Source: Candidatus Magasanikbacteria bacterium RIFOXYC2_FULL_42_28 (GTDB lineage Bacteria; Patescibacteriota; Patescibacteriia; Magasanikbacterales; GWA2-37-8). Taken from it: DNA of 64,000 nucleotides. Location: positions 23,347-87,346 of the forward strand of contig MFQZ01000008.1 in assembly GCA_001784435.1 (NCBI GenBank). The letters run 5' to 3'. Numbering within the stretch: position 1 is the first letter of the stretch; every line of letters begins with the position of its first letter. Shown one piece after another: positions 11,748 through 63,644 of the stretch. The position numbers and the translations under genes were made by a program. The notes beneath the pieces were generated by a model. It was not told the origin of the DNA, did not search any database, and worked only from the letters and a program-made list of their open reading frames with translations.

Positions 11748-11824
11748 TGTCATCCCGATGAAAATCGGAATCTCTGTCCAATAGTGATTGCCGTGCGAAG
11801 ATCCCGATTTTCATCGGGATGACA
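11748..11824. repeat. perfect 21-bp inverted repeat TGTCATCCCGATGAAAATCGG / CCGATTTTCATCGGGATGACA around a 35-nt loop, followed by a degenerate GTGCGATGACA tandem; the left arm recurs at 43761-43792
   Basis: seen directly. Confidence 0.6.
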
Positions 11825-13822: not shown

Positions 13823-13965
13823 CAAATTTCAAAATCCAAATTTCCAATGTCAAATCAATATCAAAGCCAAAATGTCAAACCAAACCAGGTAATACAGTTG
13901 GTATTGATTTTTTGTAAATAACCTGTTATAATCGTTTGGAAATTGGATATTGGAAATTTGAAATT
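13823..13965. repeat. AT-rich palindromic GGAAATT-family element (arms TTTCAAAATCCAAATTTCCAATGTCAAAT ... TTGGAAATTGGATATTGGAAATTTGAAAT) between two tRNAs
   Basis: seen directly; same family as 33945, 34588, 38643, 39681, 41887 and 62236. Confidence 0.6.
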
Positions 13966-13990: not shown

Positions 13991-14063
13991 GGTGCCTATA
14001 GTGTAATGGTTAGCACGAGAGATTGTGGATCTCTCAGAATGGGTTCAAATCCCATTAGGCACC
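13991..14063 (+). tRNA. tRNA-His (anticodon GTG) with the extra 5' G(-1)
   Basis: G-1 pairs with C73; acceptor GTGCCTA/TAGGCAC; anticodon loop TTGTGGA; T-loop TTCAAAT. Confidence 0.8.
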
Positions 14064-15734
14064 CCAAACGGTATCTAATATAACCGAGTTCGGTTGATTG
14101 GATATCATTGCAGGAATCTCGGCAATTTGTCGGGATTTTTGCGTTTTAGGGGCAATCTTGGATTTTGATTTGCCAGCTATGAATGGTGTGAATTCTACGG
14201 CCAAGTCGGTTATTATTCTCGGACCGGTAATTTCTTTGTATTTCTTGGTAAAAACCATATCCTCAGCTTGCATCAGTCCTCTTATGATCGGTGATGGTAT
14301 TACGGTTTGGATTTTTTTGTCGGCTACCTCAAATCTTTCCCAGTAAAGCCCAAGGAATAATCGTTTCATTTCGTCCGGAGATTTAGTATAGGCTTCGTAA
14401 GCGTTGCGGACAAACAAGAGCATATCTTGCAGTTCATCGATCCTCATATTGAGTTTTTTATCTTGGACGTACAGTTCGTCTTGCAACAGCCCAAGCTGTT
14501 CTTTAATTTTCACTTTTATTCTGGTGAAGTCGTCATCGGTAATAAGTCCGGCAAATAGTTTTTCCTCGGCGGTGTCCCGTTTCTTTTCAAACATCATCTT
14601 TTGAGTATTCAAGCCTCGTTTGTCTTTATTGATCACTTCTTTGCGACCGCTGTAAATCTTTTCAATCTTGGTCACCAGTCTGTCGGTAAAATTGGGAGTA
14701 AATTCTATATACTTGAACAAGTTAGCAACTTGCTGTTCTATATCCCAGACTTCCACATATTTGTCTTGGCATTTAATCTGATCGCCAGACCGGTTGCAGT
14801 GATAATATGATTTATTTTTCTTAGGATGATGTTCGGCGGTGTATCTTTGTCCGCAGTTGGCACAAAAGGTTAGACCTCGCAGAATGAAATTGAATTTTTG
14901 CCGTCGGCAGGCATATCTATTGTGTTCGGCCATAACCAACTGGACTCGTTCCCACAAATCTTTATCTATAAGTGGTTTATGTTTTCCGGTGTTAACTAAT
15001 CCTCGCCACCTCATCTCACCATAATAAAAAGGATTTTTTAGTATCTCGATCATCTTACTGTGAGCCAATCGTTTATCGGCGTGTGTTCTAAAACCTTTTT
15101 TGTATAAAGCATCGCGAACTTCAAAGACTGAATAATCGCCAGTCACATACATTTTGAATGCTTCTTGAATAAGCGGTGCCCGTTCCTCATCTACAATAAT
15201 AATTCTTTTTTTCTCATCGTCCGGCTCGCCAGCATTTAAATAGCCGACAGCCACACCGGTCGGCCACCAACCCTCCCAGAATTTTAGCTCAAGACTTTTC
15301 AAAGTTTTTCTCGAAGTGATTTGGGATTGGAGTTGGTTCACACCGGCAATAACCAAGTCCATAAAGTTTCCCTCGGGGCTATCGGTAATGCCAGGTTGGG
15401 AGACAGAGAACAGTTCAACATCATGCTTTTTCATGATCGCTTTGATCTGCATGTGATCAAGAGCGTTTCTGGCTAGTCGGTCAGTGTCTTGAATAAAAAC
15501 CGCCCTGATTGTTTTGTCGTCTTGGATTTTAAGTAACATGTCTTGTAGACCGGGACGATTCATATTAGTGGCTGATCGTCCGGGGTCTTCAAAAACACCG
15601 TCATCTATCAGTTTGAATTTGTTACTTTCCTCGATCGCTCGTTTGCAGAGCTTGAGCTGAGTCGCAAGCGAGTGGTGGCCGTCCTCGGCCTGTTCCTCGG
15701 TTGAGACTCGGCAGTAAATTAATGCATGTTCCAT
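14055..15734 (-). CDS. large serine recombinase (integrase) of an integrated element; its 3' end overlaps the 3' end of tRNA-His
   Basis: N-terminal resolvase catalytic domain (ALIYCRVSTEEQ ... DRLARN), recombinase domain and Zn-ribbon-like C-terminus (CxxC...C) typical of large serine recombinases. Confidence 0.85.
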   Translation of the reverse strand: MEHALIYCRVSTEEQAEDGHHSLATQLKLCKRAIEESNKFKLIDDGVFEDPGRSATNMNRPGLQDMLLKIQDDKTIRAVFIQDTDRLARNALDHMQIKAIMKKHDVELFSVSQPGITDSPEGNFMDLVIAGVNQLQSQITSRKTLKSLELKFWEGWWPTGVAVGYLNAGEPDDEKKRIIIVDEERAPLIQEAFKMYVTGDYSVFEVRDALYKKGFRTHADKRLAHSKMIEILKNPFYYGEMRWRGLVNTGKHKPLIDKDLWERVQLVMAEHNRYACRRQKFNFILRGLTFCANCGQRYTAEHHPKKNKSYYHCNRSGDQIKCQDKYVEVWDIEQQVANLFKYIEFTPNFTDRLVTKIEKIYSGRKEVINKDKRGLNTQKMMFEKKRDTAEEKLFAGLITDDDFTRIKVKIKEQLGLLQDELYVQDKKLNMRIDELQDMLLFVRNAYEAYTKSPDEMKRLFLGLYWERFEVADKKIQTVIPSPIIRGLMQAEDMVFTKKYKEITGPRIITDLAVEFTPFIAGKSKSKIAPKTQKSRQIAEIPAMISNQPNSVILDTVWGA

Positions 15735-33552: not shown

Positions 33553-33933
33553 TTATTTCAAATTCAACGCGTTAAACACAAAGCGAGCAATGGCATAAGC
33601 GGCCAAAACTATTACCAAACCAATACTGGATGTTTCCAGCAATTCTTTCGCCTTGGTAACGCGCTCGCTATTGCCCAGGGCCGTCATCCACACGCCACCG
33701 GCGTATAAAGTCAAAACGAAAAATAACGCGCCGATAAGCGACAGGGCGATACCGACGATAGCGCCAATAAGGTCGATGACATTGGTGGCGTCGGCTACTT
33801 CTTGCGGTAATTTTGCTTCCTTGGCCGCTGTGCCTAAACCATATCCACCTGTGTAGGCCTCGGCCAAAACAAAAGTCGGGGCGAGCAGTAAAACACCGGC
33901 TAAAATTGTTAATGATATTTTTTTAAAAGACAT
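33553..33933 (-). CDS. T4SS-pilin-like protein, paralog 4 (minimal form)
   Basis: core YAGGVWMTALGNSERVTKAKELL. Confidence 0.6.
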   Translation of the reverse strand: MSFKKISLTILAGVLLLAPTFVLAEAYTGGYGLGTAAKEAKLPQEVADATNVIDLIGAIVGIALSLIGALFFVLTLYAGGVWMTALGNSERVTKAKELLETSSIGLVIVLAAYAIARFVFNALNLK

Positions 33934-33944
33934 AGTTTGATTAA

Positions 33945-34060
33945 TATCAAATTTCCAATGTCAAATGTCAAATCAATTTCAAAATCCAAATTTCAAAAAA
34001 CGATTTGACATTTAAATTTTGGATTTGATTGGAAATTGGAAATTTAGATTTTGACATTTC
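33945..34060. repeat. about 115-bp near-perfect AT-rich palindromic element of the GGAAATT family
   Basis: CAAATTTCCAATGTCAAATGTCAAATCAATTTCAAAATCCAAATTTC / GATTTGACATTTAAATTTTGGATTTGATTGGAAATTGGAAATTTAG; near-identical copy at 34588-34702. Confidence 0.7.
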
Positions 34061-34157
34061 ACTCAACCTATTTCCCGACAGGGGGTTGCGAGTTCGCCCA
34101 CAAACGCAACTGTTTAAAATTGCGAGCGAGCGCGCGAACCCCCTGCCGAAAAATATA

Positions 34158-34547
34158 CTACCCGGTAAACCCTGTTTTATCAACTAATTCTCCAACCACA
34201 AACTGCGCAATCGCGTAAGCGGACAAAATAATTGCGAGACCGATAATACCCGAGAATATCCATTTCTTGGCTTCGCCTACTTTTTCATCATTACCGCCGG
34301 CCGTCATCCAAGTAAAGCCGCCGATCAAAATAATGACGATGGCGACGATACCCAAAAAGCCGAGTACTACACTAATAATGTTACCAATAGTAGCGCGCAA
34401 ATCACCATCTCCCAAACCACTTGTTTTAGCAAAGCCCAGGCCCAAGTTCTCTTCTTGATCTGGCGTACTGCTTATAGCCAACACTGGCGTGGCAAACAAA
34501 GCCAAAGCCATCACGCCCAAAATTACTCCACTTAAAATCTTTTTCAT
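34158..34547 (-). CDS. T4SS-pilin-like protein, paralog 5
   Basis: core GGFTWMTAGGNDEKVGEAKKWI; strong SD (GGGGGTGAG) before the ATG. Confidence 0.6.
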   Translation of the reverse strand: MKKILSGVILGVMALALFATPVLAISSTPDQEENLGLGFAKTSGLGDGDLRATIGNIISVVLGFLGIVAIVIILIGGFTWMTAGGNDEKVGEAKKWIFSGIIGLAIILSAYAIAQFVVGELVDKTGFTG

Positions 34548-34587
34548 ATTCTCACCCCCTTTCGCAATTTTAATATCATATTATTAA

Positions 34588-34702
34588 TTTCAAATTTCCA
34601 ATGTCAAATGTCAAATCAATGTCAAAATCCAAATTTCAAAACGCGATTTGACATTTAAATTTTGGATTTGATTGGAAATTGGAAATTTGGATTTTGACAT
34701 TG
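34588..34702. repeat. palindromic GGAAATT-family element, copy nearly identical to 33945-34060
   Basis: seen directly. Confidence 0.7.
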
Positions 34703-34743
34703 CTAATATTATACCACATTTATTTTTTCGCCACAACTACAAA

Positions 34744-37224: not shown

Positions 37225-38667
37225 TTATAACGTTTGGCCGACTTTGGCCACCGCGTTATTTAACACCCCTTGACGCGCTTCATCTTCTTTAGCAATCCCA
37301 GCCGGTATGGTGAGCCAATCATCTACCATATCACCCACGGCTTTGGCCGCGACCGAATAATTACTGCCCCGATACCAATTTTCGGCCATTAAAACCTGTT
37401 CTACAAACGGCGCCACTTTTAAGTCAGCCCGTTGCTCCTCGATATACGCGCGCAGTGCCGTCGGCCGACCGCTGGCATCTAAATAATCTTTGGTCGCTTT
37501 GGAATGAGCCAAATAATCTATCAAACCCCAGGCCTCATTTTGATGTTTGGATTTGGCGGTAACGGCCTGTAAATAATAATTAGCCACGTTCACCGGTTGA
37601 TCCGGATTTAATTGAAATAATGGTAATACGCCAATATTCAACTGGGGAGCGCGCGCTTTAATGGTCGGATAATCATAACTATATCCTACCATAAATCCAA
37701 CTTTTCCGCTAACAAACGCGTCCATGGCATTACCCATATTTTTATTCCAGCCATAAGTGTCACGCGTAGGATTGGCAAAATCAGTATAAAAATCTAACAC
37801 GCTAAACGAGGCGCTGTTGGCATCCGCGCGTCTGTCCCGCCCACTGCCAAATTGTAAACGACCAAAATTATCACTAAACGGCACGCCACTTTGGCGGAAT
37901 AAAACAAACAAAATATCATCAACCGCCGCGACATTTTTACCAGCGCCAAAAGCCACGCCCGATTGAGTGATTTTGTCGTTTACCCGATCATATTTATTAA
38001 TTTTTTTCACCGCGGCCTGAAATTCATCCCAATTTTTAGGCGCTTCCGGCACACCCGCGCGGTCCAATAAATCTTTGTTGTAATAAACAGCCAAAGTATC
38101 CAAAGACAGTGGCAAGCCATAAACCTTGTCGCCTATTACCGCGTCCTCTTTGACTACTTTTACATATTCGCGCTCCAATTGAGTCGGCGTTACGAGTGGT
38201 ATGGTGCCAACCTGAACGGTAGTTTCGTCGCCCCCCAGGGCGGTTTTGGTCGTAAGCAAACGCGCATCCGAGACACTGGCCGGCATCGGCGCGATTTTAC
38301 TCAAATACCCGCGCACCATCCGATTGGAAATAGAAATAATATCCGGACCTTTATCTTCGGCAAGAGCTTCAATCAATCGCTGATAAAATTCCGAAGCGCG
38401 CAATTGGCGAACATTAACAGTTAAGTAACTACGGCCATCCAATTTATATTTTTCAATATTAGTTTTAAGCGCGTCCACATCATCGGCCACAGTCCAATAT
38501 TCTAAAGTTAATGGTTTAACCAATTGTTGTTGATCGGCAGAGATGCCTTTACAGCCGAGACCAGAAGTAATTAGAAACGCAAAAATACCGCTTATAATAA
38601 GTAGGGGTAAAATTTTCTTATGCGACTTTGGCATAAATTTTAATGTCAAATTTCCAATCAAATCCAA
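37225..38667 (-). CDS. extracellular solute-binding protein (ABC sugar-type SBP family) with a lipoprotein-like N-terminus
   Basis: N-terminal TM/lipobox (SGLGC), 480 aa, SBP-family-1-like profile; call not verified. Confidence 0.45.
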   Translation of the reverse strand: MDLIGNLTLKFMPKSHKKILPLLIISGIFAFLITSGLGCKGISADQQQLVKPLTLEYWTVADDVDALKTNIEKYKLDGRSYLTVNVRQLRASEFYQRLIEALAEDKGPDIISISNRMVRGYLSKIAPMPASVSDARLLTTKTALGGDETTVQVGTIPLVTPTQLEREYVKVVKEDAVIGDKVYGLPLSLDTLAVYYNKDLLDRAGVPEAPKNWDEFQAAVKKINKYDRVNDKITQSGVAFGAGKNVAAVDDILFVLFRQSGVPFSDNFGRLQFGSGRDRRADANSASFSVLDFYTDFANPTRDTYGWNKNMGNAMDAFVSGKVGFMVGYSYDYPTIKARAPQLNIGVLPLFQLNPDQPVNVANYYLQAVTAKSKHQNEAWGLIDYLAHSKATKDYLDASGRPTALRAYIEEQRADLKVAPFVEQVLMAENWYRGSNYSVAAKAVGDMVDDWLTIPAGIAKEDEARQGVLNNAVAKVGQTL

Positions 38668-38745
38668 ATGTCAAATATCAAATTTTGACATTGTCCACCA
38701 CAGGCCGATCCGCCTTTGGCGGAGAAATTTGGATTTTGAAATTAC
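38643..38745. repeat. GGAAATT-family palindromic element with an inner CCGCCTTTGGCGG hairpin
   Basis: seen directly. Confidence 0.6.
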
Positions 38746-38750
38746 CAATA

Positions 38751-39611
38751 TTATACCACACTTTTCAAATATTTCCTAAAATCTTTTCCCAAAATCGGGC
38801 TACGGAGCGCAAAATCAACATTGGCCTGAATATAACCGAGCTTGGAACCGGTGTCATAATATTTACCATCTACTTCACAGGCGTAATAGGGGCGTTTTTT
38901 TAACACTTTGGCGTTAGCGTCAGCCAACCACAACTCCCCGCCTTTGCCCAATTTGGTAGTTTCTAAAGCAGTAAAAACATCCGGCGTTAAGATAAAGGCG
39001 CCAAACATACCAAGGCGTGAAGGTGATTTTTCTGGCCCGGGCTTTTCCACAATTTTTTTAACTTGATACACCCCTTTTTCCACTTCCACCCCATCAATCA
39101 TCCCATATTTTTTTGTGCCTTCATCATCGGTTTTTTGCGCGGTAATTACTGGATCGCCATATTTTTCATAAACATCCATTAATTGTTTTAGATGCGGTTT
39201 TTTAGGACAATAAAAAAATTCATCGCCCCACATAACCGCGAACGGCTCATCACCAATTATATCTTTGGCGCAGAGTACCGGTGTGCCGTTGCCATACGGC
39301 CCTTTTTGACGAATAAAAATAAAATTAGCGAGGTCGGCAATTTTTTTCAACTGTTCGGCCACCTCTTCTTTACCTTGTTTTTTTAATAAATTTACCAATT
39401 CATAATTTGGACTAAAATGATCTTCCACCGCGCGCTTACTGGGACCGGTTACCATAATAATGTCAGTGATTCCCGACCGCACCGCGTCTTCAACCACATA
39501 TTGAATAATCGGCTTGTCCACGATAGGGAGCATTTCTTTGGGTTGGGCCTTTGTTGCTGGCAAAAATCTTGTTCCTAAGCCAGCTACTGGAATGACAAGT
39601 TTTCTGATCAT
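38751..39611 (-). CDS. galU: UTP-glucose-1-phosphate uridylyltransferase
   Basis: VIPVAGLGTRFLPATKAQPKEMLPIVDKP signature. Confidence 0.85.
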   Translation of the reverse strand: MIRKLVIPVAGLGTRFLPATKAQPKEMLPIVDKPIIQYVVEDAVRSGITDIIMVTGPSKRAVEDHFSPNYELVNLLKKQGKEEVAEQLKKIADLANFIFIRQKGPYGNGTPVLCAKDIIGDEPFAVMWGDEFFYCPKKPHLKQLMDVYEKYGDPVITAQKTDDEGTKKYGMIDGVEVEKGVYQVKKIVEKPGPEKSPSRLGMFGAFILTPDVFTALETTKLGKGGELWLADANAKVLKKRPYYACEVDGKYYDTGSKLGYIQANVDFALRSPILGKDFRKYLKSVV

Positions 39612-39680
39612 AATTTTAAGTGATTATTTCATTGAAAATATTATAGCTTTTTTAACTTTATTTTACAAGAGAGAACTTTA

Positions 39681-39790
39681 ATTTCAAAATCCAAATTTCC
39701 AATTTCCAATCAAATCCAAAATCCTAATATCAAATTTGACATTTTGGCTTTGACATTGATTTGACATTGGAAATTGGAAATTTGACATTT
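39681..39790. repeat. GGAAATT-family palindromic element immediately upstream of the PilX-like gene
   Basis: seen directly. Confidence 0.6.
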
Positions 39791-41167
39791 TCACTCTATC
39801 TCTTCCCAACTCACCAAAAAATATTCCGACCCAACCGGAAAACCGGGGGGTGGATTTAGAGTTAAATTGGCATCGTAAGTGGCATAGGTATTTTTGTAAC
39901 CCGACACCACCGACCCGCCACCGGACACATAACTCCAAGTCCACAAATCATTGGAAATTATCGAACCATAAATAGTTAAACTTTCCCGTTTATTGCCCAT
40001 ATAAAAATATCGCTTGGCCGCGCCGGTTTGGGCGAGCATGGCCGCGTCCACTTCCAAGTAATTAGGCGCGATGTAGGGCAACAAAATATTTTTCTCAGCA
40101 ATCAATCCCAAAACATTAGTGCCGTCTTTCGCTAAATAAGTTAAATTATTGTTAATAACAATTGATTTGTCATCCGCCGTGCCGACCGTCGCCCGACCGT
40201 TGACAATCCCGTCCACCCATACCATATCTTCTACATATATATAGCCATTGGTCGGCATATCATATACCACTGCCGTGCCAAAAGTGGCGGCGTCAATGCA
40301 AAACCAGCCAAAGCGCGCGTGGCCATTGCCCCAATAATCTTGGCCGTAATAACAATCCGTGGTATTAACTTTGTAAATATTAATTTTGCCATCAGCGCGA
40401 AATTCCAGCCGATATCCTTGCTTACCGGACGATGTTAAATAAATACCATTAATTTCCGCCTCGCGTTTAATTTCGGCCAGTTTGGCGGTAACGCGCGAAA
40501 AATCTTGCGCCGGCACCGGAAATTCCCACAAACTCTCGTCGCCGTCGCCCCACACTCCGGGTTTTTCTTGATTACCGCAACCGTGATGTTGTTTACATAT
40601 ATAAGTAGGCACCGCCGAGGTAATGGGTGCGTTGCCAATGCCGTCAAAGCGCGCCCCGCCGTTAGCATGCAGTTTGCCGTTGGCGGTTTCGCTGTCGCCA
40701 ATCCAAATATCCACATTGGTAAGATACGCAAAATCCGTTAAAGCCGGAAACCCGACGCGCGCTTTTAAAGTGCGTTTGCTATCGGGCTGTAAATCCAACC
40801 AGCCGGTGGATTCAATCGTAACGACCGTGGAACCGCTTTGGGGTGGAATAATATTTAAAGAATAATGGCCGATGACATTGCCATCTTTATCTTCGTATTC
40901 GTGGATGTATGGCCCAACCGCGCCCGTGCCGTCTTGATAATCAGTTTTATCATGCGCCAAATGCCAGCGATAATAATTCACGCCCGCCTCGGCAATTTGA
41001 AAAGCCATTTCGCGATTATGTTTATGAACCGAAGCCCGATTTTCCAAAACCGCGTAACCGGTAACACCGACGACAATTAAACTAAAACTAATGGCGCCGA
41101 AGATGAGGGCAAAGAGTAATGCTGTTCCCCTTTTGTCAAATTTTAATTTTTTATAAATATTCAGCAT
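39791..41167 (-). CDS. PilX-like type IV pilus minor-pilin/assembly protein (large secreted protein)
   Basis: N-terminus KRGTALLFALIFGAISFSLIVVG resembles the PilX_N domain; 458 aa. Confidence 0.4.
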   Translation of the reverse strand: MLNIYKKLKFDKRGTALLFALIFGAISFSLIVVGVTGYAVLENRASVHKHNREMAFQIAEAGVNYYRWHLAHDKTDYQDGTGAVGPYIHEYEDKDGNVIGHYSLNIIPPQSGSTVVTIESTGWLDLQPDSKRTLKARVGFPALTDFAYLTNVDIWIGDSETANGKLHANGGARFDGIGNAPITSAVPTYICKQHHGCGNQEKPGVWGDGDESLWEFPVPAQDFSRVTAKLAEIKREAEINGIYLTSSGKQGYRLEFRADGKINIYKVNTTDCYYGQDYWGNGHARFGWFCIDAATFGTAVVYDMPTNGYIYVEDMVWVDGIVNGRATVGTADDKSIVINNNLTYLAKDGTNVLGLIAEKNILLPYIAPNYLEVDAAMLAQTGAAKRYFYMGNKRESLTIYGSIISNDLWTWSYVSGGGSVVSGYKNTYATYDANLTLNPPPGFPVGSEYFLVSWEEIE

Positions 41168-41289
41168 GCTAATAACTATTAATAATTCACTAAGTCCTAA
41201 TTCGCTAATTAACTAATCAAATACCAAAGTATTCAAGAATTGAAAATTTTATTAGCGAATTAGTTAATTAGTGAATTAGTTAATTTTCG

Positions 41290-41922
41290 TCAATTTGTCT
41301 TAAGATTTCTAATCGCCGCCTTGGTCTCAATCGCAAACGGCACCGGCGCCACATTAGGTTTTTCTTCTAATAATAAATTTATGCCAATCACCCGCACCAG
41401 CGCCGGATCAATCGGTGCTGACATCGGCGTGCCGGTCGCGCCGGTATAATCCTCATCATAATAATAAAACAGCGACGAGGTGGTATTGGCGACATCATGA
41501 ACAATATCAGTAACAGTTTCGCTCCCTAAATTATACGCGAGCGGTGTGCCGGTCGCTTTCACTATCCCCACTTTCAACGTCGTGCTCACCAAAAAATATC
41601 TAATCCTCTCCCGAAAAGAATCCGCGTCTAAATTGGAATAAAAAACCACCTCTTGGGCACCAGCCGACTCCAAACCATAACCGCCCGTGGCCGACTGCCC
41701 GGCGCGACGCAATTGATTAACAAAATCCTGCACCACCTTACGCCCTTCGTTTTGGGTGGACAACTGCTCCCACACCACATCGCGCCCCCGAAATCCCCAT
41801 ATAAAAATTTCCATCGTGCCCGCTGACACAATCAAAAAGATTCCAATCGCCACAAGGATTTCAATAATGGACATGCCGCGGGTATCAGTTTTGAATTTGG
41901 GATTTTGGATTTGATTTGACAT
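41290..41922 (-). CDS. prepilin-type N-terminal cleavage/methylation domain protein (pseudopilin)
   Basis: class III signal RG-MSIIEILVAIGIFLIV. Confidence 0.6.
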   Translation of the reverse strand: MSNQIQNPKFKTDTRGMSIIEILVAIGIFLIVSAGTMEIFIWGFRGRDVVWEQLSTQNEGRKVVQDFVNQLRRAGQSATGGYGLESAGAQEVVFYSNLDADSFRERIRYFLVSTTLKVGIVKATGTPLAYNLGSETVTDIVHDVANTTSSLFYYYDEDYTGATGTPMSAPIDPALVRVIGINLLLEEKPNVAPVPFAIETKAAIRNLKTN

Positions 41923-41945
41923 TGGAAATTTGGATTTTGAAATTA
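41887..41945. repeat. half-copy of a GGAAATT-family element, overlapping the 5' end of 41290-41922 and reaching the stop of 41943-43745
   Basis: GATTTGACATTGGAAATTTGGATTTTGAAATT. Confidence 0.5.
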
Positions 41946-43745
41946 CAACGTGGACATATTAACAAACGTATCCGCGTTCCCGACAACATCCACCTGACCG
42001 GCATTATTCGCATACCCCGAACGCGTTACCGTCACGGTATAAGAACTGGCGGATAAACCGCTAAAAAACGCCTGCCCGGGCGGGGTGCAACTATTAGTAT
42101 AGGTAATGGACAATTCGGATAAAATGGGGGTGTAGTTGTTGTTAGTAGTGCTTAAATACGCCTTATAGCGCAAATAACGCTTATCACTCAAAGAAGCCGG
42201 AATAGTGGGATTAGCAACCGTAAAATAGGTGCCGGCGGTGCCGTCCGGACCGACAAAACTCCAACTGGCCGGCGTGGAAGAATTGGAAGTGGCTAATTGA
42301 AATTTCAAAGAATTAGCGCCGGTTTGCGACGGCTGGGTCAAGGGGTTAATTACCAAATTGCGCAAAGTTATAGGCGCGCCAAAATCAAAAGTAGATGATT
42401 CTAAATTACCGCTAAGATAATATTTAGAACCATTCTTTTTTAATTTGACATTGCCGGCCGTGGCGCCGGACACATTAATCGTGCCACTATCGCTAAAATA
42501 TTTATTTTCAATTACATAAGCCACCTGTCCGGTTCCGCCCGACCAATCGGTCTGACGCAAGTAACCGACGCCCGTGGATAAGGTCTGATCATAACCGCCT
42601 CCGCCGGTCAAACGCACAGACGCGTCCGACAAGGGCAAACCGGTGCCGGAATCAAACACTTTTACCAATAAAGAATTAGCGCTATGCGGTTGTAAAATCG
42701 CGGTAACATCTTGCGTAGCGCCCGCGTGTAAAACAATCGGCAAGGGTGGAATCGTGCCAGCAATATCATAAACACCACTCGTGGCACTGATATGATAATC
42801 ATTAAATTCCAAATTATTCAAAGCAATACTGCCGGCGCCACCCGTTAAAAAATTTTGATTATATTTATAAACATCCGGATCAATACTCAACATTTTTTCA
42901 CTGCCGTACATATTAAAATTCGCGTTGCCGACCGCGACGCAGGTGGCGTTAACGGAATTAAAATTAATACTCCCCAATAAATCAATGGAAAAACTGATAT
43001 CAGTCACGGTTTGCTCATTAACATTAGACGGTGGTTTAACCGGAGCCGGTACCGCTGGCGAAGTCGCTACCGTATAATCAGAAGAATACCCGTCTTTGGA
43101 CACCGTAATATGATAAGCCAAAGTGCCGGTGGGAGTATCAATAATCCGCAAATAACCATTGGCATCAGTGGTGTCATCAATAATTAAATCCGGATTTAAA
43201 TCAGTATTAGCCACATGAACATCAGCCCCGGCCACGGGTAAACCATCTTCGCCAAACACCTCAATAAAAAGCGCGCCATTACTGCTCGCCCCTTCTAGTT
43301 GTCGCGGCGACACCATCGTACTTAATTTAATCGGCATGGCCTGACCGCAACCAAAACAAATTGCCGACATTTCCACTAATTTATAATCGGCCGGTGAAGT
43401 GTCATTCGGGCTACCGCCGATGGTACCGTCAAAAGCATCATCAATATTGCGCACCGTGGCCGTTATCAAAAAATCCAAATTATTACGTGTGACGGTTTTC
43501 GTGCGCGCCAGTGCCCCCACCGGCACACCGTTTAAAATACCAACACTTTCATATGGCAAATTGCGCGCCACTTCCAATTCTTCTGACAGTAAAGCCGTTT
43601 CCAAAATTTTAATGCGCGATTGATAAACAATTTTAAAAACCAGCGATAATCCGCTATAAATCCCAATCGCGAATAACAAAAATATGGCCGAGGCGACCAC
43701 GGCTTCCACGAGAGTGAATCCTTGGTGGGATTTTATTTTTGGCAT
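41943..43745 (-). CDS. large (600 aa) prepilin-type minor pilin / pilus-associated adhesin-like protein
   Basis: class III signal QG-FTLVEAVVASAIFLL, then a long beta-rich Thr/Ser/Gly-rich domain. Confidence 0.55.
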   Translation of the reverse strand: MPKIKSHQGFTLVEAVVASAIFLLFAIGIYSGLSLVFKIVYQSRIKILETALLSEELEVARNLPYESVGILNGVPVGALARTKTVTRNNLDFLITATVRNIDDAFDGTIGGSPNDTSPADYKLVEMSAICFGCGQAMPIKLSTMVSPRQLEGASSNGALFIEVFGEDGLPVAGADVHVANTDLNPDLIIDDTTDANGYLRIIDTPTGTLAYHITVSKDGYSSDYTVATSPAVPAPVKPPSNVNEQTVTDISFSIDLLGSINFNSVNATCVAVGNANFNMYGSEKMLSIDPDVYKYNQNFLTGGAGSIALNNLEFNDYHISATSGVYDIAGTIPPLPIVLHAGATQDVTAILQPHSANSLLVKVFDSGTGLPLSDASVRLTGGGGYDQTLSTGVGYLRQTDWSGGTGQVAYVIENKYFSDSGTINVSGATAGNVKLKKNGSKYYLSGNLESSTFDFGAPITLRNLVINPLTQPSQTGANSLKFQLATSNSSTPASWSFVGPDGTAGTYFTVANPTIPASLSDKRYLRYKAYLSTTNNNYTPILSELSITYTNSCTPPGQAFFSGLSASSYTVTVTRSGYANNAGQVDVVGNADTFVNMSTL

Positions 43746-43933
43746 AAATATTTAAACACTTGTCATCCCGATGAAAATCGGGATCTCTGTCCCACTTTGT
43801 ATATTATACCAGAAAAATCACCCGCTGTCATTCCGAACAAATGTGCAATAAAAAAACGTCTCGCGAATAATGCGAAACGTTTGAAATTTTCAATAAACCA
43901 ATTTACAATTTTCAATCAATTTTCATTTTTCAA

Positions 43934-44242
43934 TTAAACAATCCTAATGCCGGTCTTTTTAATCTCATTAACCATCGGATTGTTTTTATCGTTAAAATCA
44001 GCGACGGTGAAACCGTGGGGTTCAATTCGCCCATCCACATTACTACCGGCCATCCACAGGGCGGAACTATTTTCAAACCGACGTAACTTATCAGAAAATA
44101 TCGCCACATCAATATCACTAAATTTATTAGCCAAACCTTTGGCGGTGGAACCAAACCAAAAAATACTGGCAAACGGAAAATTGCTTTTTTTTAATTCGGC
44201 CGCGTAAGAACAAACAATTTTTTTTACTTTATCTTTTGACAT
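43934..44242 (-). CDS. nucleotidyltransferase (MNT) component of a HEPN/MNT toxin-antitoxin pair
   Basis: GSTAKGLANKFSDIDVAIF (GS...SDxD polymerase-beta-type NTase motif). Confidence 0.65.
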   Translation of the reverse strand: MSKDKVKKIVCSYAAELKKSNFPFASIFWFGSTAKGLANKFSDIDVAIFSDKLRRFENSSALWMAGSNVDGRIEPHGFTVADFNDKNNPMVNEIKKTGIRIV

Positions 44243-47397: not shown

Positions 47398-47569
47398 TTA
47401 TGCACAGCGCCAGTTTTACGAAAATGTGGTATAATATGTGTGAAATACTAAACCCTAAATCCTAAACTCTAAAGAAGTCCAAATATTTAAATTCAAAAAA
47501 AACAAAAATTTTGACATTTTTATTTGGAATTTGTTTAGAACTTAGTGTTTAGAATTTAGAATTTTTATT

Positions 47570-49915: not shown

Positions 49916-50350
49916 ACTGTCTCGCTGTCTTTCCCCTCCTTTTCAAGGAGGGGACCAAGGGGCGGTTCACTCACCAACAAAAAAATATCCGCCTCACAGC
50001 GAATATTTTTATTATAGAAGCAAAACCACCCTCGCCAAAATTAAACTATTTTAATTCTAACGAGGTAGGGGTGGTCTTGCGATGTTCTGTAAGTCCGCCC
50101 ATACCTTTTCTTCGTCATTTTTTGTCCTCACCCTCTTGATCGTTGGCGCCCTCACTTCTCAACGACTCTGCGTAGTCGTTGTCGGACTGTAGCTTTTCCA
50201 ACTGTTCTTTTTCATCTTCTTCTTTTGTTTTTTTTGACTTCTTTTTGAAATCGGACGACATTCGCCCTCCTTTTGCCAGAGAGTGATTTCTCGGTCTCGG
50301 AAACTCTAACAAATAACTCTCTCTCTCTGTCAAATATCCCCCCCCCCCCA

Positions 50351-53476: not shown

Positions 53477-53507
53477 CAAAAAACCGTCACAATCGTGGCG
53501 GTTTTTT
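53477..53507. terminator. A-run/hairpin/T-run element AAAAAACCGTCACAATCGTGGCGGTTTTTTT; copy 1 of a 4-copy terminator repeat (others at 54685-54713, 57212-57246 and 58945-58975)
   Basis: seen directly. Confidence 0.55.
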
Positions 53508-53530
53508 TGTATAAAAATTGCGCGCCACAA

Positions 53531-54684: not shown

Positions 54685-54713
54685 AAAAAACCGTCACAAT
54701 CGTGACGGTTTTT
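54685..54713. terminator. terminator repeat copy 2 (AAAAAACCGTCACAATCGTGACGGTTTTT)
   Basis: seen directly. Confidence 0.5.
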
Positions 54714-54743
54714 AATAACAAACCAATAATCTCTATACTGAAT

Positions 54744-55085: not shown

Positions 55086-55652
55086 TTATTTAGGCTCAGT
55101 AGCCAACAGCAGATTTTCCATATAGAACCCGCCTGGCCAATGAGTACTTTCACCATCATCGTCAACGGGAATTATTTTTGTCTCTTCAATCTGATTTTTT
55201 AATCTATTGTGAGGCAATGCTGATGTTGAAACAACGAATACTATATCTTCTGCCTTATTTTTACCTCTTCTCACCCGACCGTACGCATCGCGGGCCATTG
55301 GCTCTGATCTAGTTACGACAACACATGGTGTCTCACCCTCCATGAGCTCGCTATTTAAAAATGCTTGACCAACGGGAGAAAGGGAAACTTCTGGGTAAAC
55401 CATTATTTTTGTTCCCTGCCCCCTCCATTCGGCAATTTGCTTGGCTAATGCCAACCGGCCTGACCCATCGCCGTGTATCTGGAGCACCTTCCAACCACTG
55501 GGAAGTTCGTCAAAATTCAATTCTGGAGCTTGTTCTTGTCCCTCTTTTAATAAATAAGCCTGAAAATTTTCAGCTGTATTATCTATTAAAGTATCCAAAC
55601 TCAGAATTTCCGGCTGTGGTTCGCCACGTATTTTCCCTTCGCTTATTGTCAT
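55086..55652 (-). CDS. hypothetical protein expressed from a poly-C-containing repeat promoter
   Basis: ORF; no recognisable family. Confidence 0.35.
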   Translation of the reverse strand: MTISEGKIRGEPQPEILSLDTLIDNTAENFQAYLLKEGQEQAPELNFDELPSGWKVLQIHGDGSGRLALAKQIAEWRGQGTKIMVYPEVSLSPVGQAFLNSELMEGETPCVVVTRSEPMARDAYGRVRRGKNKAEDIVFVVSTSALPHNRLKNQIEETKIIPVDDDGESTHWPGGFYMENLLLATEPK

Positions 55653-55734
55653 ATATTTTTTAAATTAAAAATAAATTTTTCCCTATTAAGTATACCCCCC
55701 CCCCAACCGCTTTTGGCAAATTAGTTATCCACAG
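55653..55734 (-). promoter_or_regulatory. 82-bp repeat copy 1, read in minus orientation: DnaA box TGTGGATAA, -35 TTGCCA, G10 tract in the spacer, -10 TATACT, AT-rich leader, ATG
   Basis: near-identical to 57723-57804; C-run at 55695-55704. Confidence 0.5.
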
Positions 55735-55809
55735 ATCGCCACCCTTTGGGCTATGACCTTTTTGCAAGGCAGGGCAACCAAAGAGTGAAAAAAATATAAA
55801 AACAGCCGT

Positions 55810-58975: not shown

Positions 58976-58993
58976 ATTTTACACAAACTATCC

Positions 58994-61268: not shown

Positions 61269-63644
61269 TTACCCCATCCGACTCAACCTTGCGAAAACAA
61301 AAAATATCACACTAAACCCAACCCCCATCACAACCGGCGCGAAGAGCGACAACCAATTGGTTTTCCCCGGCCGAAACCGACGCAAAAATAATGAATTAAT
61401 AACAACCGATACCGAAGACAACGCCATGGCCAATCCGGCCAATTCCGGTTTTAACACCAAACCAATGCCGGCAAAAACTCGCGCGGCAATTGGAATGCCG
61501 ATGACATTATAGAACAACGCAAAAAACATATTTTGTTTTATTTTGCCCATGGTCTCGCGGCTTAATTGAATCGCGGTCAGCACATCGCGCAAATCGTTTT
61601 TGATAATTACGATGCCACCAGTTTCCATCGCCACGTCTGTGCCACTACCCATTGCAATTCCCAGATCCGCCTGCGCCAACGCCGGCGCGTCGTTTATGCC
61701 GTCCCCCACCATGGCGACTTTCACACCCGCGCTTTGTAATTTTTTCACCTCGTTCGCTTTTTCTTCCGGCAACACCTCGGCCAATACATTTTTAATTCCC
61801 GCTTGACGCGCGATTGCTTCGGCCGTCCGACGATTATCACCGGTAATCATATATACTTCTAGCCCACGCTTCTGCAACATTTTTACCGCTTCCACTGTTG
61901 TCTCTTTAATTGTGTCCGCGACGGCAATCAACCCAACCAAATCATTTTCAATAACCAAAAACATTACGGTCTTCCCCTCTTTTTCCAACTGCTCTACGAC
62001 ATAATTATTAGCGGGCGCAATCACCAAATTATTATCAGCCAATAATTTCCGATTTCCCAATAAAATTTTCTGCTCATTAATTTTACCAACTACACCATGC
62101 CCGGGAACTGCGCTAAATTCCTGTACCTCCAAAAGCACTAAATTTTTCTCCTTGGCCTTATTCACAATCGCATCAGCCAAAGGATGTTCTGACTTGGATT
62201 CTATGGAAGCGGCAATTTGAAGAATTTGATCATTGGGATTTGAAAATTGATTGGAAATTGGAAATTGGAAATTGGAAATTGCGATGATATCCGTCAATTC
62301 CGGCTCTCCCTTAGTCAAAGTCCCGGTTTTATCAAAAACAATCACTTTAATTTTACATGCCGCTTCCAATGGCTCACCCCCTTTGATAAGTACGCCGTGT
62401 TCTGCACCTTTACCCGTGCCAACCATAATCGCGGTCGGCGTGGCGAGGCCCAAAGCGCACGGACAAGCAATAACGATAACGGAGGTAAACGCCATTAACG
62501 CGAACGCGAGCGACGCGCCCAAGAAAAAATACCATACCAAACCGGTCAAAATCGCAATGCCAATTACCGCCGGCACAAAGTAAGCGGAAATTTTATCCGC
62601 GAACGCCGCAATGGGCGCTTTGCTCCCCTGCGCGTCTTCCACCACGCGAATAATTTGCGCGAGCATAGTTTCGCCTCCGACTTTCGTCGCGACAAATTCA
62701 AAACTGCCGTGCTTATTTATGGTGGAACCGATTACCACATCGCCCACATTTTTTTCCACCGGAATACTTTCACCCGTAATCATACTTTCGTCCACAGCTG
62801 ACTGGCCTTTGGCAATTTTTCCATCCACCGGAATTTTTTCACCCGGACGCACGACAATGACATCGCCCGCGACCACCTGTTCAATCGGTACATCCGCCGT
62901 TACACCATTTTTAATTACGCGCGCAGTTTTGGCTTGCAAACCCATTAATTTTTTAATCGCGTCCGAGGTCTGGCCTTTGGTTTTTGCTTCCAACCATTTA
63001 CCTAACACCACGAAAGTAATTAGAAACGCCGCGGTCTCAAAATATAATTCCGGAATTTTCGCGCCGTTTAAGCCGATAAAACTATTGGTGATCCGAACAT
63101 AATTAAGATATTGTACTAAACTGTAAAAGAACGCGGTGCTCGTGCCAATCGCAATCAAACTATCCATGTTGAAAGTTTTCATTTTCAAACTACTCCACAT
63201 TCCTTTGTAAAATCCGGTGCCAATAATAAACTGCACCGGAATGGTCAAAATCAAAGAAATTATTCCGACATAAGGCAATAGTGCCGCTCGGAGTGGAATA
63301 AATGAAAAGAAATCAAACAACATGAAATACAACATCGGCAAAGACAACCCAAAACTCCACCAGAATTTTTTGCCATATCCGGTTAACACAGTCGCGCGCT
63401 CGCGTCTATCCGCCTCCGGATCAGAGTTATCATTCAAACGCGCTTTGTAACCGGCCTTTTCCACCGCCGAAATTAATTGCGCGACGGTCGTGAGCGAAGT
63501 ATCAAACACCACCCGCGCTTTTTCCGCGGCAAAATTTACATTGGCGGTTTGAACGCCCGTCACCTCTTTTAATCCCCGCTCAATCAAAGTGGCGCAAGAC
63601 GCGCAGTGCATGCCTGACAAATTTAATTGTTTATTATCGATCAT
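61269..63644 (-). CDS. copA: copper-translocating P1B-type ATPase with an in-frame repeat-derived insertion in the N-domain
   Basis: HMA domain [11 protein letters not shown] motif, [17 protein letters not shown]; start taken at MIDNKQ. Confidence 0.9.
62236..62282. repeat. GGAAATT-family repeat segment ((TTGGAAA)x4) embedded in-frame in copA, encoding [14 protein letters not shown]
   Basis: seen directly. Confidence 0.6.

What the first reader, a model, noticed from the sequence alone, without database searches (positions are those of the whole stretch)
33945..34702. Family of about 115-bp AT-rich palindromic elements (GGAAATT/TTGACATT-rich) punctuating the surface-gene cluster
At least seven copies occur, at 13823-13965, 33945-34060, 34588-34702 (nearly identical to the previous), 38643-38745, 39681-39790, 41887-41945 and 62236-62282. 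All are built from TTGGAAA heptamer runs, AAATCCAAA and TGTCAAA modules arranged as long near-perfect palindromes. They lie exactly in the non-contiguous gaps between pilin-like genes and upstream of galU and the PilX-like gene.

Because they are palindromic, every copy presents a TTGACA hexamer pointing outward on each side. For example, for paralog 5 the sequence reads TTGACATTGGAAATTTGAAATTAATAATAT, then SD GGGGGTGAG, then ATG. They therefore look like portable bidirectional terminator-plus-promoter cassettes, or MITE-like elements, that subdivide the array into separately expressed units and could mediate recombination between copies.
Basis: seen in the sequence. Interest (0 to 1): 0.7.

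Follow-up and report, generated by a model that had tools for sequence, protein, structure and literature searches.

The report
Miniature IVS-like palindromic repeat family
The AT-rich palindromes are real: they are gene-less miniature copies of a selfish DNA cassette, of the kind known for interrupting 23S rRNA genes, that sits between and even inside ordinary genes in many candidate-phyla-radiation (CPR) bacteria.

Summary
The repeat family exists at the stated coordinates and is far beyond chance. Five copies are about 110-140-bp inverted pairs of a 55-nt "arm". Two are single arms inside coding sequence: a prepilin leader and a CopA loop. Each arm is about eight heptads of the form TTnGnnn.

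The same arm occurs in more than 108 loci of roughly 59 GTDB assemblies, nearly all CPR lineages. It is found at gene junctions, in frame inside housekeeping genes, and inside a 23S rRNA gene. Two syntenic relatives (GalU 76-78% identical) lack all four inserts, and the closest CopA orthologues lack the CopA insert, so the copies are insertions.

In 7 of 7 loci examined, a C-type arm and a G-type arm flank a PF05635 "23S rRNA intervening-sequence protein" gene. In 87 of 120 homologues the protein begins with the arm-encoded peptide MSNQIQNPNDKK. The window palindromes are 75-86% identical to the joined ends of such cassettes. One encodes MSNFQFPMSNQCQSQNVK fused directly to G-arm sequence.

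They are therefore ORF-less (MITE-like) derivatives of an IVS-type selfish cassette. "MITE-like" is supported. "Terminator-plus-promoter cassette" is not. I found no prior description.

The parts
13825..13965 (.). Element copy between tRNA-Arg and tRNA-His. C-type arm 13825-13879, 54-nt central insert carrying TGTTATAAT (13924-13932, +), truncated G-type arm 13934-13965.
   Evidence: fold -33.3 kcal/mol, z -3.6
33940..34058 (.). Full ORF-less element (119-nt unit; arms 33943-33997 and 34004-34058), immediately upstream of T4SS-pilin-like ORF 33553-33933(-).
   Evidence: D4; z -3.9
34583..34701 (.). Full ORF-less element, 96% identical to 33940-34058 over a sharply bounded 119 nt (its two arms 96% and 98%). 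It lies 6 nt downstream of TGTGGTATAAT (34708-34718, -) and upstream of T4SS-pilin-like ORF 34158-34547(-).
38635..38745 (.). Element copy between galU and the solute-binding-protein gene. C-type arm 38635-38682; G-type arm interrupted by a GC-rich hairpin insert. It starts about 5 nt after TGTGGTATAAT (38750-38760, -), which overlaps the galU stop codon. The ATG at 38636 follows directly.
39680..39789 (.). Full ORF-less element, an inverted-orientation relative of 34583-34701 (arms 87-91% identical). It lies 1 nt after the PilX-like stop codon (39791-39793) and upstream of TTGTAA-N17-TATAAT (39668->39640, -) and galU. The minus strand encodes MSNFQFPMSNQCQSQNVK fused to G-arm sequence.
   Evidence: (z -5.7)
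41890..41944 (-). Single arm (C-type on the gene strand) at the junction of ORF 41943-43745 and prepilin-like ORF 41290-41922. It supplies the ATG (41922) and leader residues MSNQIQNPKFK. Absent in L111 and L112.
62225..62280 (-). Single arm in frame inside the CopA-like P-type ATPase ([19 protein letters not shown]). It replaces about 9 residues of the N-domain loop, a net gain of 10 aa.
41170..41285 (.). Probable relative with a different vocabulary: a palindrome of AATTAGTT/CTAATTAA 8-mers between the prepilin-like and PilX-like genes. Absent in L111.
   Evidence: I20; z -5.7; family membership not tested
47443..47567 (.). Probable relative: a palindrome of CTAAAYC / TTTAGAA heptads directly after TGTGGTATAAT and before the ftsK start. 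The vocabulary resembles the arms around the PF05635 gene in L104.
   Evidence: (z -5.1); family membership not tested

Best explanation
The elements are ORF-less miniature derivatives of a selfish DNA cassette that is widespread in CPR (Patescibacteria) and belongs to the same kind as 23S rRNA intervening sequences (IVS).

The full cassette has three parts. The first is a C-type arm: G-poor heptads nnnCnAA that contain the start codon and the first 12-18 codons, MSN(FQFPMSN)QIQNPNDKK. The second is the body of a PF05635 four-helix-bundle gene (S23p, "23S rRNA IVS protein"). The third is a G-type arm, the inverted copy built of TTnGnnn heptads. Deleting the gene body leaves the roughly 115-bp palindromes seen in the window.

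Copies are inserted DNA. They persist only where they do little harm:
- in the very short gene junctions of these compact genomes, where they are transcribed as part of the flanking mRNA;
- in variable rRNA helices;
- as single C-type arms in frame in surface loops or N-termini of proteins. The C-type strand has no stop codon in any frame, whereas the G-type strand carries TGA in every frame.

Shown: family membership, insertion status, in-frame translation and cassette ends.

Inferred: the inverted arms form a long AU-rich stem in the transcript that RNase III cleaves, as established for IVS stems in rRNA. That would split operon transcripts at the junction. Start codons (prepilin 41922) and TTGACA boxes brought in by the arms are incidental by-products.

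Unknown: how the element is copied to new sites. No transposase was found.
For: Within the window:
- 11 arms, with 0 expected by chance.
- 33940-34058 and 34583-34701 are 96-98% identical over a sharply bounded 119 nt, although the flanks are unrelated and the adjacent pilin paralogues are only about 64% identical.

Insertion status:
- Syntenic loci L111 and L112 keep the same gene order but have no arm in 16.8 kb each. In L111 the four junctions that carry 58-120-nt inserts in the window are only 5-40 nt long.
- In 108 of 120 CPR CopA orthologues the DKTGT..SEHP segment is 41 aa. The window protein has 51 aa. Orthologues 84-87% identical lack the insert, and 4-5 others carry arm-like inserts at the same loop, one in the opposite orientation.

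Distribution:
- More than 108 loci in roughly 59 GTDB assemblies, mostly CPR classes, against only 1 hit in IMG/VR.
- 25 inverted pairs, all in the order C-arm then G-arm and none reversed.
- 32 of 118 hits lie deep in long ORFs, nearly all with the C-type strand as sense strand.
- Arm-bearing inserts lie inside a 23S rRNA gene, including the helix-25 IVS site.

Link to PF05635:
- C-arm + PF05635 ORF + G-arm in L010, L104, L192, L202, L209, L217 and L221, that is 7 of 7 loci examined.
- 87 of 120 PF05635 homologues carry the arm-encoded SNQxQN motif at the N-terminus, although the query excluded that segment.
- Window palindromes are 75-86% identical to the joined ends of four such cassettes.
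- The short ORF in 39680-39788(-), MSNFQFPMSNQCQSQNVK-FDIRILDLIGNWKFGF*, matches the P0124 N-terminus and the P0160 read-through C-terminus.

Literature:
- The Coxiella IVS is described as a selfish element with terminal inverted repeats. It has tandem heptameric repeats, variable in number between strains, just upstream of the S23p start, and it is excised by RNase III (PMC4990558).
- CPR rRNA insertions include 23S_rRNA_IVP ORFs and short IVS-like inserts (PMC11270868).
Against: - No target-site duplication is visible.
- No transposase or other recurrent enzyme gene was found in 0.8 Mb around arms. PF05635 is not a known recombinase, so mobility has no identified mechanism.
- The two arms of an element are no more complementary to each other (0.739) than to arms from other genomes (0.766). 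Mismatches show no sense-strand G-U bias (49 vs 45). The hairpin therefore shows no sign of selection, which weakens the RNase III step.
- Arm identity within a genome (0.78) is about the same as between genomes (0.77), and TT/G positions are nearly invariant at a 7-nt period. This looks more like sequence constraint than neutral decay of a transposon. The foreign loci were, however, selected by a 20-mer.
- No PF05635 gene lies in the 64-kb window, and the rest of the source genome could not be read.
Confidence: 0.65

Rival explanations
1. The heptad arrays are functional cis-elements. Arrays of TTnGnnn heptads in convergent orientation would be bound cooperatively by a protein conserved in CPR, for example a ribbon-helix-helix-type repressor or the S23p pentamer itself, and would regulate the flanking genes. 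Copies in coding sequence would be tolerated by-products.
For: - Conservation is strictly periodic: TT is about 100% and G 86-99% conserved every 7 nt, while other positions vary.
- Polarity is fixed, 25:0.
- The arms do not covary, so base pairing itself is not what is conserved.
- Identity across genomes equals identity within genomes.
- An orthologous in-CDS arm (L011 vs L068) looks better conserved than its flanks (judged by eye).
- Period-7 repeats of many vocabularies are about 4-fold enriched in CPR loci.
- From memory: the omega repressor of pSM19035 reads 7-bp heptads in direct and convergent, but not divergent, arrays.
Against: - About a quarter of hits lie inside housekeeping ORFs and rRNA.
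- Close relatives lack the elements at all four junctions while keeping the same genes.
- Position relative to promoters is inconsistent.
- No binding protein was identified.
Confidence: 0.12
2. One reading: portable bidirectional terminator-plus-promoter cassettes that split the pilin array into separately transcribed units.
For: - Outward TTGACA with a -10-like hexamer 16-18 nt further on occurs at three elements, including the best consensus match of the region, 34607->34580.
- The polarity (A-rich 5' arm, U-rich 3' arm on both strands) matches that of bidirectional terminators.
- 39680-39789 sits between a stop codon and a good promoter-like site.
Against: - No GC-rich stem plus T run is called at any element, although canonical terminator-like hairpins exist elsewhere in the window.
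- Elements 34583-34701 and 38635-38745 lie downstream of extended -10 boxes, and the solute-binding-protein ATG follows its element directly. That gene must therefore be transcribed through the element.
- In many genomes the start codon is 1-10 nt after the element.
- The model does not explain the copies in coding sequence or in rRNA.
Confidence: 0.08
3. The copies are not related by descent. Heptamer microsatellites would arise and expand in place by slippage in AT-rich CPR genomes and converge on similar low-complexity words.
For: - A perfect (ATTGGAA)x4.6 run lies in the CopA gene.
- A 46-nt deletion between internal direct repeats is seen among population variants.
- L112 has (TATTAGG)x4 at the orthologous galU junction.
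- Period-7 repeats of many vocabularies are in excess in CPR loci.
Against: - The arm has a non-periodic conserved core (TTGATT) and a defined length of about 8 units and defined ends.
- The 20-mer gives more than 108 hits in GTDB against about 4 expected from a uniform-composition estimate of my own, and 1 in IMG/VR.
- There is a sharply bounded 119-nt near-identical pair.
- The arms are tied to the PF05635 N-terminus.
Confidence: 0.05
4. The arms are DNA-uptake signal sequences for the competence and pilus machinery of CPR bacteria. They would accumulate by biased uptake, as DUS and USS do: single copies in genes, inverted pairs after genes.
For: - The motif is conserved across very divergent lineages.
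- Single copies sit in tolerated reading frames, and inverted pairs sit at gene ends.
- From memory, this pattern parallels DUS in Neisseria and USS in Haemophilus.
Against: - The copies are 55-115-nt insertions, not motifs created by point substitution.
- Density, about 1 arm per 6 kb here, is low.
- The physical link to a specific gene cassette is not expected for an uptake signal.
Confidence: 0.04

Closest known systems
23S rRNA intervening sequences (IVS) carrying an S23p/PF05635 ORF (Coxiella, Leptospira; ORF-less forms in Salmonella and others)
   Same: - Terminal inverted repeats that can form a stem.
- A PF05635 four-helix-bundle ORF in the loop of the full-length relatives, 7 of 7 loci.
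- Tandem heptameric repeats at the S23p start whose number varies between strains (PMC4990558; compare).
- Family members sit in 23S rRNA, including the helix-25 site.
- Sporadic, selfish-looking distribution.
- ORF-less short forms exist.
   Different: - The window copies are not in rRNA. They lie at mRNA gene junctions, between tRNAs and in frame inside protein genes.
- The arms are 55 nt, built of about 8 heptads.
- The DNA sequence is shared across many CPR classes.
- RNase III excision is untested here, and the arms show no pairing covariation.
MITEs (miniature inverted-repeat transposable elements)
   Same: - Small and without an ORF.
- Inverted ends shared with a longer gene-carrying element.
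- Multi-copy, with insertion polymorphism between relatives.
- Solo-end copies occur.
   Different: - No target-site duplication was seen.
- The cargo gene of the long form is not a known transposase.
Rickettsia palindromic elements (RPE) (from memory)
   Same: Palindromic repeats of about 100-150 bp found both between genes and in frame inside conserved protein genes, at permissive surface sites.
   Different: - Here only single arms occur in coding sequence, because the second arm carries stop codons.
- The internal structure is heptad-based.
- The host range is a superphylum, not one genus.
- The family is linked to PF05635.
ERIC/IRU and Neisseria Correia (NEMIS) elements (from memory)
   Same: Imperfect palindromes of about 100-150 bp, co-transcribed with flanking genes. 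Correia elements are RNase III substrates and can bring promoter boxes.
   Different: No sequence relation. Correia elements have TA target duplications and IHF sites. Neither family is linked to a cargo gene or to rRNA IVS.
Cyanobacterial STRR tandem heptanucleotide repeats (from memory; mentioned in PMC2858038)
   Same: Strict 7-nt period. Located between genes and inserted into a structural RNA gene (RNase P RNA). Function unknown.
   Different: STRR are simple tandem arrays of one word. No inverted-pair architecture or PF05635 link is known to me.

Membership tests
IVS-type element (S23p/PF05635 cassette) | Terminal inverted repeats able to form a stem | tested here: met
   Five window copies fold at -33 to -42 kcal/mol, z -2.8 to -5.7. 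All 25 pairs are in C-arm then G-arm order.
IVS-type element (S23p/PF05635 cassette) | PF05635 ORF between the inverted ends | tested here: not met
   The window copies carry no ORF body, only its first 11-18 codons. Full-length relatives meet this in 7 of 7 loci. The window copies are therefore filed as ORF-less derivatives, like the short IVS of enterobacteria.
IVS-type element (S23p/PF05635 cassette) | Location in variable helices (25, 45) of 23S rRNA | tested here: not met
   The window 23S gene (3917-6891) holds no arm. Family members in L014 do lie in 23S rRNA, including helix 25.
IVS-type element (S23p/PF05635 cassette) | Heptameric direct repeats at the S23p start, variable in number | tested here: met
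   7-nt periodic arms span the start codon. Population variants differ by a 46-nt deletion between direct repeats, seen in the G-arm rather than at the start. For Coxiella see PMC4990558.
IVS-type element (S23p/PF05635 cassette) | Excision of the stem by RNase III | not testable with these tools
   No transcript data were available. The lack of pairing covariation gives no support.
MITE | Target-site duplication | tested here: inconclusive
   No duplication is visible at 5 window copies or 21 foreign copies. Ends in AT-rich DNA are hard to fix to the base.
MITE | Ends shared with an autonomous element that encodes a transposase | tested here: inconclusive
   The ends are shared with the PF05635 cassette. 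PF05635 is not a known transposase, and no transposase is recurrent near arms.
MITE | Presence/absence polymorphism at orthologous sites | tested here: met
   L111 and L112 lack all four junction inserts. The closest CopA orthologues lack the insert.
Rickettsia palindromic element-like selfish DNA | In-frame insertion in conserved protein genes | tested here: met
   CopA gains a net 10 aa in an N-domain loop. The prepilin leader is replaced. 32 hits lie in ORFs in other genomes, including LeuRS and UvrD-like genes.
Intrinsic terminator / sigma-70 promoter cassette | GC-rich stem followed by a T run; -35/-10 pair facing each flank | tested here: not met
   No terminator-like call at any element. 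Promoter-like pairs occur at only three elements, and on one side each.
REP/BIME/REPIN | 20-40-nt palindromic unit associated with a RAYT transposase | tested here: not met
   The arm is 55 nt and heptad-built. No IS200/IS605-like gene is recurrent in 0.8 Mb.
TIGR array (TIGR-Tas) | 36-nt units with two 8-9-nt spacers, next to a Nop-domain Tas gene | tested here: not met
   The period is 7 nt, the variable positions are too short to be spacers, and the same sequence recurs across genomes. For the definition see PMC12045711. The neighbouring genes that were scanned against Pfam include no Nop-domain protein.
Rfam RNA families | Match to a curated covariance model | tested here: not met
   Nothing at the gathering threshold. 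Only generic miRNA-hairpin noise at E<1.

The most novel reading that the evidence does not exclude
The PF05635 (S23p) pentamer is itself the sequence-specific partner of the TTnGnnn heptad arms. Together they would form a new kind of mobile genetic element without a classical transposase. This element would create rRNA intervening sequences, intergenic palindromes and in-frame insertions in essential proteins throughout the CPR, and possibly the heptamer repeats and four-helix-bundle genes of cyanobacteria and Bacteroidota as well.
Probability: 0.2. Interest if true: 0.88.

Novelty: new variant of a known kind. Interest (0 to 1): 0.72.

Why it matters
IVS elements and their S23p ORFs have been known for decades as oddities of 23S rRNA, with no known origin, function or means of spread. 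This work shows the same kind of cassette, with a recognisable DNA signature, dispersed through protein-coding regions of many CPR lineages.

- It supplies hundreds of independent insertion events with which to study how IVS elements move and where they land.
- It gives a concrete source for some low-complexity N/Q/S/I-rich insertions in CPR housekeeping proteins and for short rRNA insertions.
- It gives a testable ligand, the heptad arms, for the uncharacterised PF05635 family, which Pfam also assigns to the DGR accessory protein Avd (PMC10053308, listed but not read).
- It warns annotators: gene starts, leader peptides and apparent promoters in CPR genomes can be element-derived, and the repeats probably break metagenome assemblies, since many cassette genes sit on contigs of about 1 kb.

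Tried and rejected
- Rfam at gathering and E-value thresholds: no family.
- TIGR-Tas arrays: wrong period and no spacers.
- PARCEL coding repeats: these are 25-aa tandem units inside ORFs, not this.
- Integron attC sites: considered because the elements follow small same-strand genes. Rejected by inspection, because the arms lack GTTRRRY/RYYYAAC cores and also occur inside genes.
- Phage-borne element: only 1 hit in IMG/VR.
- Selection for an RNA hairpin: no own-arm excess complementarity and no sense-strand wobble bias.
- Search for a recurrent transposase near arms: only housekeeping families were found.
- Strain-level variation of the window copies: the two contigs recovered are 100% identical to the window.
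- A strict six-heptad periodicity scan of the window was uninformative, because the central TTGATT breaks the register.
- Literature searches for CPR plus MITE, heptanucleotide or palindromic element, and for the exact repeat string, found no prior description.
- The genome-wide copy number in the source genome could not be obtained.
Full report

Yes. Reading the stated coordinates shows AT-rich sequence built from 7-nt words: TTGGAAA, TTGACAT, TTGGATT and TTGAAAT on one strand, and their complements on the other.

- Repeat and tandem-repeat finders group the copies.
- A 20-mer from the arm core, TTGATTKGAMATTGGAAATT, occurs 7 times in the window against none in 100 shuffles.
- An nhmmer profile built from nine arms finds 11 arms in the window, E from 3e-14 to 4e-4.
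- Five copies are inverted pairs of a 55-nt arm (13825-13965, 33940-34058, 34583-34701, 38635-38745, 39680-39789). They fold as long hairpins, -33 to -42 kcal/mol, z -2.8 to -5.7.

Parts of the description need correcting.

- Two of the seven "copies" are single arms, not palindromes, and both are in coding sequence. Arm 41890-41944 supplies the ATG and the leader residues MSNQIQNPKFK of the prepilin-like ORF 41290-41922(-). Arm 62225-62280 encodes [19 protein letters not shown] inside a CopA-type ATPase.
- The arms of a pair are only about 75% complementary in register.
- One copy lies between tRNA-Arg and tRNA-His.
- The "pilins" are PF18895 T4SS-type pilins.
- Outward TTGACA boxes are present on both sides in only two copies.

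**2. Anatomy**

Alignment of the copies in both orientations gives defined ends, AAT(T/G)TCAAA ... TTTGA(A/C)ATT.

- The 5' arm is G-poor ("C-type") and the 3' arm is C-poor ("G-type"). Because the element is palindromic, this holds on both strands.
- Each arm is about eight heptads around a non-periodic core, TTGATT.
- Across 109 arms from many genomes the conservation is strictly periodic: TTnGnnn, with TT about 100% and G 86-99% conserved, also in columns that were not used to fish out the loci.
- The C-type strand has no stop codon in any frame. The G-type strand has TGA in all frames (by inspection; consistent).

**3. The copies are insertions**

- The two contigs that encode the identical GalU protein are 100% identical to the window, so they show no strain variation.
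- A protein-guided metagenome scan found two syntenic relatives, L111 and L112 (GalU 78% and 76% identical). They have the same gene order: large pilin-like protein, prepilin, PilX-like, GalU, (SBP), then the T4SS pilin array. Neither has an arm in 16.8 kb.
- In L111 the four junctions that carry 58-120-nt inserts in the window are only 5-40 nt long: TAAATATG, TAAAATATG, a 40-nt spacer, and GTGGTATAAT-aggtgagct-ATG.
- At the galU/SBP junction, L112 carries a different heptamer run, (TATTAGG)x4, plus other hairpins.
- In CopA, the alignment to the A. fulgidus structure shows an extra 11 residues.
- Among 120 CPR orthologues the DKTGT..SEHP segment is 41 aa in 108 but 51 aa in the window protein. 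Orthologues 84-87% identical lack the insert. Four or five others carry arm-like inserts in the same loop, one in the opposite orientation (IGNWKMEIG).
- Within the window, 33940-34058 and 34583-34701 are 96-98% identical over a sharply bounded 119 nt, while their flanks are unrelated and the adjacent pilin paralogues are about 64% identical. This is a recent copy.
- 39680-39789 is an inverted-orientation relative; its arms are 87-91% identical to those of 34583-34701.

**4. Distribution**

A uniform-composition estimate of my own predicts about 4.
- Of the 80 listed hits, roughly 59 assemblies are represented. About 55 loci are labelled as CPR lineages: Moranii-, Woese-, Magasanik-, Sacchari-, Levy-, Falkow-, Kuenen-, Berkel-, Uhr-, Roizman-, Yanofsky- and Peribacteria, Parcubacteria and Minisyncoccia.
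- A few Lewinellaceae and other Bacteroidota loci hold a different palindrome family.
- IMG/VR gave a single hit.
- In these loci, 25 inverted pairs all have the order C-arm then G-arm, never the reverse.
- The pairs fill the junction between same-strand genes. They start 0-25 nt after a stop codon and often end 1-10 nt before the next ATG. This adjacency is expected from genome compactness alone.
- Thirty-two of 118 hits lie deep inside long ORFs such as LeuRS, UvrD-like, FolC-like and FemAB-like genes. Nearly all have the C-type strand as sense strand, giving peptides like [18 protein letters not shown]. All three frames are used. The few opposite cases contain only the stop-free GGAAATT run, giving [12 protein letters not shown].
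- In L014, three arm-bearing inserts lie inside the 23S rRNA gene. One is a 116-nt insert in the helix-25 loop, a classical IVS site.

**5. What they derive from**

I looked for arms in C...G order with something between them. This turned up a small ORF in L010, and a tblastn search with that ORF found a second in L104. Both ORFs are PF05635, "23S rRNA intervening sequence protein", E about 1e-13.

- A database search with the ORF body, with the arm-encoded N-terminus removed from the query, gave 6614 homologues.
- Of the best 120, 87 carry the arm-encoded motif at the N-terminus. Typically this is MSNQIQNPNDKK, sometimes MSNFQFPMSNQxQNPNxK, just before the conserved YDLEERTAKFGE.
- DNA was fetched for five further proteins. 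Each showed the C-arm spanning the start codon and a G-arm right after the stop codon (L192, L202, L209, L217). In L221 the G-arm follows a second cargo ORF, and the whole cassette sits between rpsQ and rplN of the ribosomal-protein operon.
- That makes 7 of 7 loci.
- The window palindromes are 75-86% identical to the joined ends of four such cassettes.
- The short ORF in 39680-39788(-), MSNFQFPMSNQCQSQNVK-FDIRILDLIGNWKFGF*, matches the N-terminal extension of P0124. Its tail matches the G-arm read-through tail of P0160.
- No PF05635 body is present in the window.

The palindromes are therefore cassette ends with the gene body missing.

**6. Comparison with what is known**

- The Coxiella burnetii IVS is described as a selfish element in helix 45 of 23S rRNA. 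It has terminal inverted repeats and an S23p ORF. Just upstream of the S23p start it has tandem heptameric repeats whose number varies between strains. It is excised by RNase III (PMC4990558).
- A survey of CPR rRNA insertions found 23S_rRNA_IVP ORFs and many short, probably IVS-type inserts (PMC11270868).
- The family here shares the inverted ends, the PF05635 cargo, the heptamer repeats at the start codon and the presence in 23S helix 25. Heptamer number also varies here: a 46-nt deletion between internal direct repeats of the G-arm distinguishes L194/L201 from L192.
- What differs is the location (mRNA junctions, tRNA spacers, inside protein genes), the ORF-less miniature form dispersed like a MITE or a Rickettsia palindromic element, and a DNA sequence shared across a superphylum.
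- I found no paper describing this. That search covers only the open-access library.

**7. How it probably works**

Shown:
- The elements are inserted, multi-copy and cassette-derived.
- They are translated when in frame.
- They are tolerated at junctions.
- They brought a new start codon and leader to the prepilin gene.

Inferred:
- They are co-transcribed. Two copies begin 6-8 nt after a TGTGGTATAAT extended -10, and in many genomes the next ATG follows directly.
- The arms form a stem that RNase III could cut, as in rRNA IVS, separating the cistrons.

Two tests weaken the inferred step.
- An element's arms are no more complementary to each other (0.739) than to arms from other genomes (0.766).
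- Mismatches show no sense-strand G-U bias, 49 vs 45, p = 0.76.

Pairing is therefore a by-product of inverted arms, not a visibly selected trait.

The way new copies arise is unknown. There is no target duplication and no recurrent transposase in 0.8 Mb of flanking sequence.

Several observations leave room for a protein that reads the heptads, possibly S23p itself: the strict TTnGnnn conservation, the fixed polarity, the equal identity within and between genomes (0.78 vs 0.77, with ascertainment bias), and a 4-fold excess of period-7 repeats of other vocabularies in CPR loci.

**8.

"MITE-like" holds. "Bidirectional terminator plus promoter" does not.

- No terminator-like call falls on an element.
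- Placement relative to promoter-like sites is inconsistent.
- The model cannot account for the copies in coding sequence or in rRNA.
- The cited TTGACA-16-AATAAT site is the best consensus match in the region, so incidental promoter activity is possible.

**9. Verdict**

This is a real and interesting repeat family. It is best described as ORF-less, IVS-type (PF05635-cassette-derived) palindromic elements. As far as I could determine it is a new variant of a known kind.

Noticed in passing
window 41170-41285: A 116-nt palindrome built of 8-mers AATTAGTT/CTAATTAA lies between the prepilin-like stop and the PilX-like start (fold z -5.7). It is absent in relative L111, where the junction is TAAAATATG. 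The architecture matches the heptad elements but the vocabulary differs.
   Followed up: partly
window 47443-47567: A palindrome of CTAAAYC / TTTAGAA heptads lies directly after TGTGGTATAAT and before the ftsK GTG start (fold z -5.1). Its words resemble the arms around the PF05635 gene in L104.
   Followed up: partly
window 43886-43945: A diverged single arm (CAATTTT-type heptads with a CAATCAAT core) lies after the nucleotidyltransferase/HEPN gene pair and is followed by a terminator-like hairpin.
   Followed up: no
window 53478-53511, 54685-54718, 57212-57245, 58947-58980: Four copies of a canonical terminator-like hairpin, AAAAAACCGTCACAATCGTGRCGGTTTTT. The genome therefore does use ordinary GC-stem/T-run terminators.
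   Followed up: no
window 55650-55744 and 57720-57815; also 50324-50350: A direct repeat of about 100 nt containing a C10-12 homopolymer run and a TTATCCACA (DnaA-box-like) motif. A further C12 run lies at 50324-50350. These may be slippage-prone tracts.
   Followed up: no
window 11748-11824 and 43761-43786: A 26-nt hairpin repeat, TGTCATCCCGATGAAAATCGGGATCT, is present three times. One copy lies in the probable 5' UTR of ORF 41943-43745.
   Followed up: no
window 14055-15734 (-), next to tRNA-His 13992-14066: A large serine recombinase gene (Resolvase + Recombinase + Zn ribbon domains) abuts tRNA-His. This may mark the edge of an integrated element, right beside element copy 13825-13965.
   Followed up: no
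window ~6545-6608 (-), inside 23S rRNA: The window's 23S rRNA has an extra hairpin of about 63 nt at Rfam model position 282/283. It contains TGTCAAAAGATTGATCGCAAGATTGATTTGGACA, words reminiscent of the arms.
   Followed up: no
L112 8861-9110: At the orthologous galU/SBP junction a relative carries (TATTAGG)x4 followed by about 200 nt of other hairpins. The same junction has therefore been hit by different heptamer sequences in different lineages.
   Followed up: partly
L192 vs L194/L201, 2873-2945: Population variants of one cassette differ by a 46-nt deletion inside the G-arm, between two TTTAACATTTGGATTT direct repeats.
   Followed up: partly
L221 700-1735: A PF05635 cassette carrying a second, unannotated 163-aa ORF is inserted between rpsQ (S17) and rplN (L14) of the ribosomal-protein operon.
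   Followed up: partly
L016, L032, L040, L046, L093, L096: Lewinellaceae and other Bacteroidota MAGs hold a different palindromic repeat family: CTTTTCCAATTTCAAATTTTTCTTTTCCAATTTCAAAT ... and its inverted copy.
   Followed up: no
L011 3034-6057 (-) and seven other loci: LeuRS is a frequent host. Genes of the LeuRS cluster appear in 8 of about 108 loci, and the L011 copy has up to three arm-like low-complexity inserts. L086 and L095 (by eye, not in the listed cluster members) carry inserts at the same APEHP site in opposite orientations.
   Followed up: partly
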